Assembly: GCA_951406725.2 (NCBI GenBank)
Contig: OX597814.1
Span: 118,544,001-118,608,000 of the forward strand
Direction: 5' to 3'
From: Octopus vulgaris
Lineage: Eukaryota
Length of the DNA stretch: 64,000 nt
Both the position numbers and the translations under genes were made by a program. The notes beneath the pieces were generated by a model that did no database searches, had not been told where the DNA came from, and worked only from the letters and a program-made list of their open reading frames with translations. Shown here piece by piece: positions 16,897 through 59,972 of the stretch. The stretch's first letter is position 1. Each line of letters starts with the position of its first letter.

Positions 16897-18132
16897 ATAT
16901 GCAAGAAGTAAATAGACACATTTAATTTTCAAAATGTCTGAGCTAAACGTCTTAATATGTTTTCAACGTGTAGAATTTACAATTGAATTATTCTTTGTCA
17001 TTCCAGGTGCCGTTGTATCAAATATATGCGAAGAGTAACCATGCTAAGCACAAAAAATTCAGCAGAACCGCCAAATGTTCAAAGAGGTTTTATTGTTGGG
17101 GAATCTGAGGCTGGTCTTAGTCAGTGAAAAATTGCCAAAAAATTTTCGAATTCCTATTGCTACTGTTAATAGAATGATAGTGCAATTCAAAAGCCAAGGA
17201 CAGGAATCAAAAGATTCTCGTCCCGGGCGACCTGGTCCCTTGGAAAGGAAGTTTCGCTGTTTGAAGAGAATTGTAGAAAACGAACTTCGTTCAAAGGCAT
17301 CTGACATTGAAAAACAGCTAGAATTTAGTGCAAGAACGTGTGTTACATATTTGCATAAGCTTGGGTATTATGGACGAGCAGCTTCAAGAAAACCTCTCCT
17401 TTAACCAAATAATATCATGAAAAGAAAGAAATGGGCTAAGGAGATGTCAGAAGAATCCAGTTCATTTGAGTGACTTTCTCAGATGAATCCAGATGAGCAT
17501 TATTTCTAGACAGCGGACGTGTTTGGATTTGTGGGGGCTTCCCAATAAAGAATTTGATTTGAAACGACTCTAACCGACTGTTAAACATGGAGGTATCTCT
17601 GTAATGGCATGGGGAGCTGTCATCAGCAATGATCGTTCTGAGCTGATCGAATGTGTCGGAATCATAAACTCTGGAAAAACATCGAAATACTTAAGAAGGG
17701 GATGCTTCCGGTGTATTCACACGATAACATAACGGAAAATGAGATTTTACTGATGGACGATGTGGCTCCATGCCAAAAGGCGAAAAGGGATCAACAGTGG
17801 CTGACTGAAAATGGGATCAAAAAGCTTCCTTGGCCGAACCAATATCCTGAAATGAAACCAACTGAAAATCTTTGGAGCATACTAAATAGAGCTATACGAA
17901 AATCTCGACAGAACCCTAAAACTAATGATGAATTGTTTCGATTGTTGCGTGAAAAGTGGGCAGAAATTCCACAAGGAACAGTCACAAGCTCATCGGTTCA
18001 ATGCCAAGAAGAGTTTCTGAATTAAAAACTGCAAAGGGAATGTCAACTAAATACTAATGTACTCCTATCTATCGATTACATTTCAATTGTTCGCTTTGTG
18101 TATTAAATAAAAGATTTTGAAAATGAAAAGTG

Positions 18133-32844: not shown

Positions 32845-33488
32845 TTGGTTACTCGGATTTTGTGTCACGAAATTGTATGGCATGTTCTTCTTTGTCTTTA
32901 TTGGGTTGCCCTACGTTGTTGTATCGGTATTTCTATTCCACGCACTATACCATTTTCTATAGGCAGAGACGTGTATTTTTGTTTGCGTAGAAATTCTTTG
33001 AGGCGTTTTTCTCTGGTATTTACATCTTCCACAATGTAACAAATATTTCTGGTTAGGCCGTATGGGATATTCCGTTTTATATTTGTTGGATGGCACGATT
33101 TAAAATTCAGATATCGATGTATGTCTGTTTGTTTATAATATACTTCATTGGTGATGATGGTATCCCTTTTAATTAAGAATTTATCTAGAAATGGTAATAT
33201 GGTATTACTCATTTTTGAAAATTGGAAAGTCGGGTGCAGATTGTTCAGGAGGATATTGAATTATTCCAGAATATCTGGCGATTATGTCTATATTATGGTG
33301 CAATCGTCAAGATATCTCTTCCATGCATCTTCAATATACTTTCTAAATTCAGTGCCGTAGTTTTTCACTACTCTCTTTTCTAACTATCCTGATACGGATT
33401 TCCATAAACGGGAACAAAATCTCTTTCCTATGGCTGTACCTCTAGCTTGCATGTAATTCTTTCCATAGATTATATATATATATATATA

Positions 33489-43279: not shown

Positions 43280-44560
43280 AGGCACAGGGAGTAGGTTGTG
43301 TAGAGTAGCATAGGACTCTAGTAGCTGCTAAAGATGAATTTACAGGTCTATTGTTATCAAGCGTGTGCCTGATGTATTCATTATCTGCAGCAGCATTAGT
43401 GTTGGTATTTTCTAAGGGTGTTGAAGGAGTCCTCACCTCCTGAACGTTCTCTTTTCTAACTGTCTTATTTCAATCATTCCCTATTTAAGTATTGGGTTTC
43501 CCTTGGTCGTAAGGTAGGTTTACGGTACAGATGTTAGTAATAGAGTTAGAGTAGGAGGTGTGACGGTCATTATTCGTGTGGATGTTTAAGGTTATGTGTA
43601 GGGGGCTAGGAGTTAGTGTGAGTTGTGTCATTATGATAAAAATCAATTAATTGACGGTTCCTAAGATTCTTACTGTTCAGATGACGTTAGCAGTGGTGGA
43701 GTAGGAAAATTTAATCAATTGAGGAATAAAGATTTTTCTAAGGGGACTGGACTTAGGGATATATTTCTCAAGTAGGGCTGAACATTAAGGGCAAAGGTGG
43801 AAGAACTAGATAGCGTCATGCGTCGTGGTCCGCTTAAGAAGATTATCCGAATATCGGTTGGAGTATGGAGGTGCACGCTGGCTTTGATTTCGATGAGCGA
43901 ATACTGATTCGGGATTAGGTTTTCTGTTACTGTAAAATTTGGAGGGATAGGAGGGAGAGCCAGATGTATCCGTGGTGCTTGGTTTTCAAGGAGGGTCAAG
44001 CCATATCGGGATGTATTTCATCGGTTTCTTATATCCGGCGCGTTGTAGGGCGCAGGTATAATAATCGGCGTATTACTTAAATATTTCCTTACTGGCGGGC
44101 GAGGGTTAAATTCTGTAAGATACGCTGTCCATCATGTATTTTTGAACAGATGGGTATGACTGGAGGAAACGCTTACATTGTTAAGGTGCTAGCTACGTTT
44201 ATGGTACGGGTAGAAAGTGTTATTTTTAAAATTTAGAGTGGTATTTAGGAAATTAGCTGTTTTAATGTTGTGGCTAAAATAAGCTCTAAGGAACATGTTT
44301 TTAAATAAATGCCTGATTCTTTTACTAAATAATTCTATTTCGCAGTTACTAGAATTCTGGATCGAAAACAGAGCGTCCTCCACATATACACAACCAGAGA
44401 TATTACGGAATTATGCTTGGAGACATTGAAAGATGTAATAACCTACGTGGTCGGTAACTTGAGCCGAGTCACACGCCGTCATTGCGAGAACTAAATTGTT
44501 AGGGATGCATTTACGGACCTAGAATTTCGCAGCAAATTGTATAATGGTTTCAGGGGCTGA
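43280..44560 (-). mobile_element. Penelope-like retroelement RT fragment with low-complexity downstream region
   Basis: DSAQVTDHVGY (GSYDGAE-type motif), (C)VY(V)EDAL at the YxDD position, HLFKNMFL..NIKTANFLNTTLNFKNNTFYPYHK, VSSSH and YYTCALQRAGYK. Confidence 0.8.
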
Positions 44561-56559: not shown

Positions 56560-57090
56560 ATTCCCCGGCTGGTTATGTTCAATACAAAATTATTTATTTA
56601 CCTAAGGTTTCACATCATGCCCTTCGAAATAGTTACCTTGCATTGCAATACACTGGTCTCAGCTTTCCTGAACCACTTGGAATCCAGCCTGGAAGTCGTT
56701 TTCCGTAAGACAGTCATTGACCTTCTGTGATTCACTCTGGATTTCGACAAGGGTGTTAAGACGGTGAACTTTGAGATGCTTTTTCATCTTGGGGAAAGGA
56801 TCGACGTCCACAGGTGATAAATCTAGCGAAAAGGGTTAGTACGGAATCAATTCCGTGTTGTATTTCGAGAGAAACCCTCGGGTGATGAGAACTCAATAAC
56901 AGGGTCCATTTTCGTTGTGAAGAATCCACGTTTTCGCCGATTATCCTCCATGAAACGCTTCAAAACGTCGTTGATTTTCCTCCAACGTTCTCCAGGCACG
57001 AATGAATTTTCTCCCTATTTCTGGGCTCAATCTTGCGTCAGCTCTTTCAGATCTCTCCTCAGCTTCTAGAAACTTTTGCATGCATGGTGG
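56560..57090 (-). mobile_element. Mariner transposase C-terminal relic (second subfamily)
   Basis: Minus strand PFSLDLSPVD..FPKMKKHLKVHRLNTLVEIQSE..DFQAGF..DQCIAMQGNYFEG matches the PYSPDLAP-type C-terminus. Confidence 0.8.
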
Positions 57091-57124
57091 GGGAGAATGT
57101 TAATAGTAATTTAGCTGGCACCTT

Positions 57125-57182
57125 TTTGGCTGATGAGAAATCGGTTGCCAATTTGGCGCTAAATTTCGAAACGGATACCAAG
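57125..57182 (+). ncRNA. Type I hammerhead ribozyme motif
   Basis: TTTGG-CTGATGA-GAAAT-(TGCCA/TGGCG hairpin)-ATTTC-GAAA-CGGA-TA-CCAAG. The core is perfect, stems I and II are 5 bp each, and stem III is imperfect. Confidence 0.65.
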
Positions 57183-57529: not shown

Positions 57530-57583
<54 letters not shown>

Positions 57584-57616
57584 TGATCAAAATAAAAACA
57601 TGATGCCAAGGATTCA

Positions 57617-57694
57617 GCGGTACATATGTTTCGGGCCTTTATTAGACAGATTTATAACAATGCATAATGTATGTCTGGGGCCTTCTTCAGCCGC
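57617..57694 (-). ncRNA. Type I hammerhead ribozyme (left arm)
   Basis: Minus strand GCGG-CTGAAGA-AGGCC...GGCCC-GAAA-CATATG-TA-CCGC. Confidence 0.8.
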
Positions 57695-57791
57695 GCACAA
57701 CAGCTTCCACAAGGACATGTGGAATGAGAGGATTTGCATCCCCAACCAATAATTTTTGATGTAACACATGTCCTTGTGGAAGCTGTTGTGC

Positions 57792-57869
57792 GCGGCTGAA
57801 GAAGGCCACAGACATACATTATGCATTATTATAAACCTGTCTAATAAAGGCCCGAAACATATGTACCGC
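57792..57869 (+). ncRNA. Type I hammerhead ribozyme (right arm)
   Basis: Stem I GCGG/CCGC, CTGAAGA at 57796-57802, stem II GGCC/GGCC extended by AGACA/TGTCT, GAAA at 57854-57857, palindromic ACATATGT, and GUA cleavage after 57865. Confidence 0.8.
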
Positions 57870-57971
57870 TGAATCCTTGGCATCATGTTTTTATTTTGAT
57901 CAATTTACTCCACCACCTACACCACCAAACGGTATACACAGGTGCTTATAATTATCAAGTACTCACCCCGA

Positions 57972-58020
<49 letters not shown>

Positions 58021-59472: not shown

Positions 59473-59935
59473 TTAGTGTATGTTATGATTTGTTATGTCA
59501 ACGATTATATTTAGATGCCATTGCTGACCTTCAGGAATATTGTGTGCTCTAGGACTAACTTTAATTTGGCATTTGCGGCTCCGTTGGTGGCTAATTAAAA
59601 AGCCTGCTCTTGACAAGCATCCACTACTGCAAACATTGCAAACCAAGCTTTCCCCATTCACTACACCAGCAGTGTGCTTTCGAGCAGCACGCTTAAGTTC
59701 TTCATGCAGAATACGTACTATCTCAAAAGTGTTGACCCCCTCTTTAACCTGCTTCCTCCAACTGTGGCGATGACATGCATTGCTCTCCCAGTCAGCGTCC
59801 TGTATATCACAGATTTTCAATGAGGATTTGATACTGTCCTTAAATCGCAGCCTTGGTCTCTGCCGAGGTCTCTTCTTTCTATTCACAAGTTCCCCATAGA
59901 GCATCTGCTTAGGGTTCCTGCTATTCTTCATTCTA
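59473..59935 (-). mobile_element. RTE-clade LINE 3' end (5'-truncated)
   Basis: RNPKQMLYGEL..RPRQRPRLRFKDSIK..WESNA..R.SWR..KRAARK..CNVCSSGCLSRAG..SHQR is the typical RTE/BovB-type C-terminus with zinc finger. Confidence 0.88.
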
Positions 59936-59972
59936 ATAATGTGTCCAGTCCAACATTACGTTGGATTGGACA

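What the first reader, a model, noticed from the sequence alone, without database searches (positions are those of the whole stretch)
57579..57976. ORF-less palindromic element encoding a complete hammerhead ribozyme on both strands
Seen: 143-bp arms with only 3 mismatches, each holding a full type I HHR (CUGAAGA, GAAA, GUA site, palindromic ACATATGT stem III). The two ribozymes point outward, there is a one-sided ~70-nt tail, and the unit sits in (TA)n. Established: PLE pseudo-LTRs carry dimer-type HHRs and can occur inverted. Inference: this is a recently mobile minimal unit, a PLE-parasitic or retrozyme-like RNA that can self-cleave in either polarity. In a full transcript the ribozyme would be trapped in a ~140-bp duplex by its own antisense arm, giving a built-in switch and a likely ADAR/Dicer substrate.
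Basis: partly seen in the sequence, partly recalled or inferred. Interest (0 to 1): 0.9.

Follow-up and report, generated by a model that had tools for sequence, protein, structure and literature searches.

The report
Mirror-image stub of a Penelope retrotransposon
This palindrome is a single-copy, cut-short, mirror-image stub of a common Penelope-type jumping gene whose end carries a hammerhead ribozyme motif, likely left when the element copied its end into both strands of one DNA break, so it is an ordinary by-product and likely not a self-standing mobile RNA.

Summary
In detail: 143-nt arms with 3 mismatches, a type I hammerhead motif in each, a 69-nt one-sided tail, (TA)n on both sides. 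The inversion junction occurs once in the 2.8-Gb genome, while the hammerhead core occurs 1,780 times. Both arms, the spacer and the tail are pieces of the terminal repeat of a young 4.7-kb Penelope-like element (Hydra clade by motifs; telomerase-like RT, GIY-YIG-type nuclease). All 47 two-armed loci examined have arms of 32 to about 4,500 nt, and the 23 short ones have 23 different junctions. The copy lacks the family's likely start site, and its ribozyme is predicted to be locked in any read-through RNA. The family is the useful part: in 47 of 47 loci one arm ends at one fixed site and the other about 70 nt further on, both arms carry the same donor's variants, and many stop at an initiator-like A with an extra G. 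This supports two-strand priming on capped, uncut RNA.

The parts
57532..57580 (.). left (TA)n target run
   Evidence: no target-site duplication can be read inside TA runs
57579..57721 (-). inverted, 5'-truncated copy of the PLE terminal repeat, ending at the family's 'short' end site
57617..57694 (-). type I hammerhead motif of the left arm; predicted cut 57621/57620
   Evidence: motif anatomy; cleavage untested
57710..57731 (+). inversion junction (blunt, between 57721 and 57722), unique in the genome
   Evidence: 1 exact match genome-wide; overlap 0
57722..57764 (+). 43-nt spacer = sense terminal-repeat sequence present only in the longer arm
57765..57907 (+). sense arm, 3' part of the PLE terminal repeat up to the 'short' end site
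57792..57869 (+). type I hammerhead motif: helix I 57792-95/57866-69, CUGAAGA 57796-802, extra A 57803, GAAA 57854-57, palindromic helix III 57857-64; predicted cut 57865/57866
57908..57976 (+). 69-nt PLE 'tail' = start of the leader that runs into the ORF in tandem copies; ends at the family's 'long' end site
   Evidence: L084 reads through it into the ORF; 100% to the first 73 nt of the unit
57977..58016 (.). right (TA)n target run

Best explanation
The element is a single-copy, 5'-truncated, two-armed insertion of a young Penelope-like retrotransposon family, likely made when the element's protein cut a (TA)n run and started reverse transcription from both DNA strands, and its two hammerheads are passengers predicted to be silent here. 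Shown: identity with the parent's terminal repeat, unique junction, variable arm lengths, two fixed outer ends, same-donor variants in both arms. Inferred: one strand primed at the 'long' site (255-nt cDNA, 57722-57976) and the other at the 'short' site 69 nt upstream (143-nt cDNA); both stopped early; their ends were joined head to head by end-joining. The template was likely capped sense RNA not yet cut by its hammerhead. Odds: about 0.93 that it is a one-off truncation product, about 0.65 for two-strand priming over fold-back.
For: Junction 22-mer: 1 copy; hammerhead-core 24-mer: 1,780 copies. Parent: L031 has an 835-codon open frame whose model best matches telomerase RT (3du5_A, E 4e-9). 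L084 shows inverted copy + pLTR + ORF + pLTR + tail, unit 4,684 nt. 47 of 47 outward pairs have one short and one long end; 27 of them came from the chromosome-1 list not selected for a tail. Arm lengths 32 to about 4,500 nt; junctions blunt in 11, 1-4 nt overlap in 16, 1-5 nt insert in 9, longer insert or unresolved in 11, of 47. The short-site arm is longer in 14, the long-site arm in 16, within 10 nt in 17. Recurrent variants on both arms in 62 of 65 cases, 95% against 12% for shuffled pairs (maximum 29% in 1,000; 45 pairs). 54 arms genome-wide have a non-genomic base before one initiator-like A (by eye 25 G, 21 T, 8 A; the genome has C), against 630 that read through. G-ended arms occur on both the short and the long side. 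No comparable pile-up at the hammerhead cut site: 23 hits against 22 at a control site. In vitro, a PLE protein extends both strands from two internal start sites that bound the tail, on uncut RNA (PMC11167929).
Against: Arm lengths are correlated (Spearman 0.74) and 17 of 47 pairs are near-symmetric, some at short palindromes (L012), which fold-back priming also predicts. Later deletion inside a long palindrome could shorten either arm. Gene conversion between arms could also make them share variants. Many copies are one-armed: of 37 unpaired-arm rows only 4 showed a short inverted piece (4 had no upstream room; some rows repeat one locus). The start site and cap are inferred from DNA only; the DPE-like GGACG sits at +27, one base off the +28 I recall for insects. 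Pfam gave no RT or GIY-YIG hit for the parent protein (GIY-YIG in 1 of 16 aligned proteins). The window's junction was not seen in the listed pieces of four public runs (most pieces were not shown).
Confidence: 0.85

Rival explanations
1. Same parent, other route: one cDNA folds back and primes on itself, giving a perfect palindrome that later loses part of its centre (self-priming, as proposed for rotifer Penelopes).
For: 17 of 47 pairs are near-symmetric and lengths correlate; arms share variants; palindromes at inverted junctions were read this way in PMC3846280 (passages).
Against: In 14 of 47 pairs the tail-less arm is the longer one, by up to about 4 kb (L051, L087, L031). Tail-less arms end at the initiator-like A plus G in L013, L029, L059, L066; in L013 the partner arm runs 164 nt past that point. 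The window's junction is blunt, with no local palindrome.
Confidence: 0.2
2. One reading: a minimal non-autonomous unit (retrozyme-like or PLE parasite) that moves as a 400-nt palindrome and self-cleaves in either polarity.
For: Outer ends are constant across copies; 7 of 26 outward pairs on chromosome 1 cluster at 399-414 nt spacing; retrozymes derive from PLE pLTRs (bioRxiv 10.64898/2026.07.22.740005).
Against: Junction single-copy; 23 short units have 23 different arm-length pairs; the 400-nt cluster is both arms stopping near one site, each with its own junction; no tandem array; no circular joint in two RNA-like runs (one contig each, weak); the two hammerheads can never be sense in one RNA.
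Confidence: 0.03
3. The stub is a by-product but now acts as a double-stranded RNA source (ADAR or Dicer substrate) through host read-through.
For: A read-through RNA would fold into a hairpin of about 140 bp; about a quarter of listed hammerhead hits open such an outward pair (26 of 101), so the family offers many such hairpins.
Against: No evidence that this locus is transcribed: the two RNA-like contigs continue into parent sequence at 57722, not into this junction. No A>G bias among copies. Arms have 2.1% mismatches, above the family's 0.63%, so no sign of kept pairing.
Confidence: 0.07
4. Assembly artefact (chimeric fold-back read).
For: Junction not seen in the shown pieces of four public runs.
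Against: Arms differ at 3 sites; ends fall on the two family-wide end sites and on TA runs; 46 other loci share the layout with their own junctions.
Confidence: 0.02

Closest known systems
Hydra-clade Penelope-like elements (Craig et al. 2021, PMC8557442), including Hydra-1_Obim of Octopus bimaculoides
   Same: C-terminal nuclease, DKT, CxCX5C linker, CxxC and CxH around conserved E and N, hammerhead in the pLTR, (TA)n targets, inverted 5'-truncated copy with a tail on one end.
   Different: Unit 4.7 kb with a 2.1-kb 3' UTR (reported Hydra elements generally under 3 kb); RWA instead of RWK; tail about 69 nt instead of 30-40. I did not see the Hydra-1_Obim sequence, so whether this is the same family is open.
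Opposite-strand minimal hammerhead pairs of truncated PLEs in Schistosoma mansoni (Cervera and De la Pena 2014, PMC4209133)
   Same: Two hammerheads 100-700 bp apart on opposite strands, read as truncated PLEs; short helix I, long helix II, unpaired base between 9 and 10.1, palindromic helix III.
   Different: Other host and PLE clade; here the family is young (median 0.9% from column majority), so junctions can be mapped to the base.
Poseidon PAc of Anolis (Frangieh et al. 2024, PMC11167929)
   Same: Two internal RT start sites bounding the tail; both strands cut and extended; AT-rich targets; uncut RNA used as template.
   Different: In vitro no difference in start site between strands was seen; here 47 of 47 two-armed loci use one site each. 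The parts I read do not address how inverted arms form.
Non-LTR retrozymes (animal type I hammerhead tandem repeats)
   Same: Short, non-coding, type I hammerhead, PLE pLTR origin.
   Different: Retrozymes are head-to-tail tandems with a hammerhead per unit; this is head-to-head, single-copy, with one sense hammerhead per strand.

Membership tests
Penelope-like element, EN+ (parent family) | Single ORF with telomerase-like RT | tested here: met
   835-codon frame with YRDD; model pLDDT 77, best fold match TERT 3du5_A E 4e-9; weak profile hit to a retron RT, E 0.003; no Pfam RT hit
Penelope-like element, EN+ (parent family) | C-terminal GIY-YIG endonuclease | tested here: inconclusive
   Y...YIG motif at 716-731 aligned with homologues; Pfam GIY-YIG in only 1 of 16 aligned proteins, not in the query; domain not searched alone by fold
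Penelope-like element, EN+ (parent family) | Partial tandem forming pseudo-LTRs, inverted 5'-truncated copy, one-sided tail | tested here: met
   L084 layout; 47 two-armed loci; matches Fig. 2 legend of PMC8557442
Hydra clade of PLEs | DKT, CxCX5C linker, CxxC and CxH flanking E and N | tested here: met
   DKT at 125, CNCICASEC at 695, CQLC at 792, CIH at 822; definition
Hydra clade of PLEs | N-terminal RWK motif | tested here: inconclusive
   RWA at 38 in the query; RWK, RWR or RWM in homologues
Hydra clade of PLEs | (TA)n insertion preference | tested here: met
   outer ends of the 47 pairs run into TA repeats, bar the L084 inner arm and a few TC or TG variants
Hydra clade of PLEs | Placement in an RT tree with reference clades | not tested
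   reference sequences not at hand
Type I (PLE minimal, dimer-type) hammerhead | CUGANGA and GAAA core, NUH site, helices I-III, extra base after A9, palindromic helix III | tested here: met
   all present in both arms; G10.1-C11.1 needs a 1-nt bulge; monomer fold about 5 kcal/mol above the ensemble; intermolecular helix III 8 bp, -7.0 kcal/mol; no Rfam hit
Type I (PLE minimal, dimer-type) hammerhead | Self-cleavage | not testable with these tools
   no run-off peak at the cut site among copies, which is indirect
Non-LTR retrozyme / non-autonomous minimal family | Head-to-tail repeats with two sense hammerheads | tested here: not met
   head-to-head arms, one sense hammerhead per strand
Non-LTR retrozyme / non-autonomous minimal family | Many copies with the same internal structure | tested here: not met
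   junction single-copy; 23 of 23 short units differ
Non-LTR retrozyme / non-autonomous minimal family | Circular RNA intermediate | tested here: inconclusive
   no joint in two RNA-like runs, one contig each, contigs only

The most novel reading that the evidence does not exclude
These stubs record a strict rule of Penelope insertion: a dimeric RNP primes both strands of a (TA)n break on capped, uncut RNA from one donor, with one subunit always at the short site and the other always at the long site 69 nt on, and the two cDNAs are then end-joined. That would explain the inverted pseudo-LTR and the one-sided tail in a single step, and would leave the hammerhead's palindromic helix III free to act as an RNA-pairing handle rather than as scissors.
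Probability: 0.3. Interest if true: 0.6.

Novelty: new member of a known kind. Interest (0 to 1): 0.3.

Why it matters
The locus itself matters little: it is one of an estimated few hundred such stubs (my extrapolation from 26 outward pairs among 101 listed hits of 1,780). The family matters somewhat more. How PLEs form inverted repeats and one-sided tails is described as unresolved in the papers I read (PMC8557442, PMC3846280, PMC11167929). This young family gives base-exact genomic predictions that an existing in vitro assay can test: one start site per strand, same-donor arms, a capped start 214 nt before the cut site, and uncut templates.

Tried and rejected
Rfam scans: no hammerhead family hit at E<=1 on 2.7 kb or E<=10 on one arm; miRNA hits only reflect the hairpin. 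Unconstrained folding of one arm does not give the hammerhead fold (z +1.25). Pfam on the parent protein: nothing. The 399-414 nt spacing cluster looked like a constant-junction family but resolved into separate junctions. Three hits 8.1 kb apart on chromosome 1 are a segmental tandem duplication holding one 270-nt stub, not an element tandem. First covariation count was inflated by two misaligned loci (L081, L101), dropped. Control site for the start-site test: 191 hits, but about 97 of the 100 listed are one point-variant class; about 3 are junctions; 91 not listed. Cut-site test: about 10 of 23 hits cannot be told from point changes. Sequencing runs: no RNA holder is on record; four runs laid as contigs cannot show ends, strand, editing or level. 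ADAR footprint: none. Earlier findings: none by sequence or by words. Base counts for one search were made by eye and have no significance test. Flank fragments gave no Pfam hit.

Full report
OBSERVATION. The palindrome is real: arms 57579-57721 and 57765-57907, 143 nt, 98% complementary, 43 nt apart, three mismatches, between TA runs. It folds at -264 kcal/mol, z -30.6. Each arm, read outward, holds GCGG/CCGC helix I, CUGAAGA, one extra A, a long helix II, GAAA, self-complementary ACAUAUGU and a GUA site, with predicted cuts at 57865/57866 and 57621/57620. Rfam found no hammerhead, so this rests on anatomy. The anatomy matches the PLE minimal hammerheads of Cervera and De la Pena 2014: short helix I, long helix II, extra base after position 9, palindromic helix III (PMC4209133, parts 1-2 of 4 read). 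The monomer fold is about 5 kcal/mol uphill; two copies can form an 8-bp helix III.

WHAT IT IS. The genome is 2.8 Gb in 227 contigs. Its size, its microsatellite load and the cephalopod names among protein hits suggest an octopus; that is my inference. A 24-mer of the hammerhead core occurs 1,780 times. The 22-mer across this locus's inversion junction occurs once. Top hits to the right arm plus tail are 98.6-99% identical and continue upstream into shared sequence for up to kilobases. Locus L031 holds an 835-codon open frame followed by a 2.1-kb 3' UTR that ends in the hammerhead. Locus L084 shows the full layout: inverted truncated copy, pseudo-LTR, ORF (frameshifted), pseudo-LTR, tail, with a 4,684-nt unit. 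There the 'tail' reads on into the ORF leader. Homologues suggest the true start lies about 13 codons upstream of L031's first ATG, in the frame seen in L084, so neither copy is shown to be intact. The protein model's best match is telomerase RT. Motifs DKT, CxCX5C, CxxC and CxH and TA targeting fit the Hydra clade (PMC8557442, section 11 read), for which an Octopus bimaculoides family is listed (supplement rows). Pfam did not recognise the protein, and no tree was built.

NOT A FAMILY OF MINIMAL UNITS. Among the first 100 listed core hits plus this locus's partner arm, 26 form outward pairs 229-9,842 nt apart. From 105 loci I recovered 47 distinct outward pairs. The sample is not random: it is the 40 best hits plus chromosome-1 hits. 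Arm lengths run from 32 to about 4,500 nt; junctions are blunt (11), overlap 1-4 nt (16), have 1-5 nt inserts (9) or longer inserts or unresolved joints (11). The 23 short units have 23 different arm-length pairs. This locus has arms of 155 and 112 nt upstream of the anchor end and a blunt joint. Cervera 2014 already reported hammerhead pairs 100-700 bp apart on opposite strands as truncated PLEs, and Craig 2021 gives inverted copy plus one-sided tail as the typical layout (passages).

HOW IT WAS LIKELY MADE. Four results bear on this. (1) In 47 of 47 pairs one arm ends at a short site (-21 to +11 around 57907) and the other at a long site (+68 to +86); L084's inner arm reads through and its final end is long. 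Twenty-seven pairs came from the list not selected for a tail. (2) Either arm can be the longer: 14 short-site, 16 long-site, 17 within 10 nt, Spearman 0.74. (3) Arms share donor variants: 62 of 65 recurrent-variant cases on both arms, against 12% in shuffled pairs (45 pairs; L081 and L101 dropped as misaligned). (4) 29 of 94 arms stop 210-226 nt upstream of the anchor end, at a TCATTC motif that I recall as initiator-like. Genome-wide, 54 arms have a non-C base before its A: by eye 25 G, 21 T (12 straight from TA runs, 2 point variants), 8 A; 630 read through. A control site gave about 3 junction-type hits in 100 listed of 191. An extra G at a 5' end is what copying a cap gives (established for other retroelements; recalled). 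No such peak lies at the hammerhead cut site: 23 hits against 22 at a control. Frangieh 2024 showed in vitro that a PLE protein cuts and extends both strands from two internal sites bounding the tail, uses uncut RNA, and needs protein for hammerhead cleavage (PMC11167929, parts 1-2 of 4 read). Together: both strands of a TA break likely prime, one at each site, on capped uncut RNA from one donor, and the cDNAs are end-joined. Fold-back self-priming (PMC3846280, passages) explains the near-symmetric pairs but needs large later deletions for the 14 pairs with a longer tail-less arm, and does not explain L013. Gene conversion could add to arm likeness. Many copies have only one arm.

WHAT IT DOES NOW. 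Probably nothing. Both arms stop short of the likely start site, the longer by 68 nt. Internal promoters lie in the pLTR of Drosophila Penelope (PMC2377424, passages). On either strand a read-through RNA makes the antisense arm first, and forming the hammerhead would cost about 110 kcal/mol. The two motifs are never sense in one RNA, so they cannot dimerise in cis. Two RNA-like runs each give one contig that continues into parent sequence at 57722, not into this junction, and shows no circular joint; the runs are contigs and only guessed to be RNA. Rare changes among 131 arms show no A>G excess. The first core box varies less than its surroundings (2 of 888 calls against 1.3-2.1%), a weak hint of selection in the donors.

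NOVELTY. The structure is known. The family is a new or unconfirmed member of the Hydra clade. Five literature searches turned up no paper, among those I read, that counts one start site per strand or cap-G ends in PLE copies; subscription papers are missing from the library, I saw only search listings for most hits, and the supplements of the bioRxiv retrozyme preprint (part 1 of 5 and passages read) were not seen. Earlier scan notes held nothing.

VERDICT. Observation confirmed; interpretation partly supported (PLE origin yes, mobile minimal ribozyme unit and switch no). Interest 0.3, resting on the family-wide insertion rule and not on this locus.

Noticed in passing
G000 family-wide; L013, L020, L026, L029, L044, L059, L066, L089, L093: Arms pile up at one initiator-like A with an extra G before it, which likely marks the capped transcription start of the element.
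   Followed up: partly
L084:387-8461 (G000:C1, near 13.05 Mb): Complete natural copy with inverted arm, two pseudo-LTRs, frameshifted ORF and tail; a good reference for the family.
   Followed up: yes
L031:1451-3955: 835-codon open frame with two low-confidence inserts of about 65 residues rich in N, R, T and P (485-547, 627-694), absent from most homologues; recalls the N-rich inserts reported in rotifer Penelopes.
   Followed up: partly
window 43905-44557 (-): Older fragment of a related PLE ORF, 26-36% identical to the parent protein, E 6e-23.
   Followed up: no
window 56560-57170 (-): Broken frames that resemble a mariner transposase C-terminus (recalled motifs; no Pfam hit on two fragments), just left of the element.
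   Followed up: partly
window 17642-18025 (+): Tc1-like DDE transposase fragment, Pfam DDE_3 E 6.5e-5, below the curated cut-off.
   Followed up: partly
window 32898-33260 (-) and 59473-59955 (-): Frames that look like another PLE thumb region and a LINE C-terminus (by eye; no Pfam hit).
   Followed up: no
L102-L103 (G000:C1:57296500-57316499): 8.1-kb segmental tandem repeat, over 99% identical, carrying one 270-nt stub of the family per unit.
   Followed up: partly
L097, L098, L047: Junctions with 48-292 nt inserts made of further element pieces, suggesting template jumps before joining.
   Followed up: no
L074/L075 (G000:C1:19712338-19712846): The only inward-pointing hammerhead pair among 101 listed hits; both arms have long ends, probably two insertions into one TA run.
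   Followed up: no
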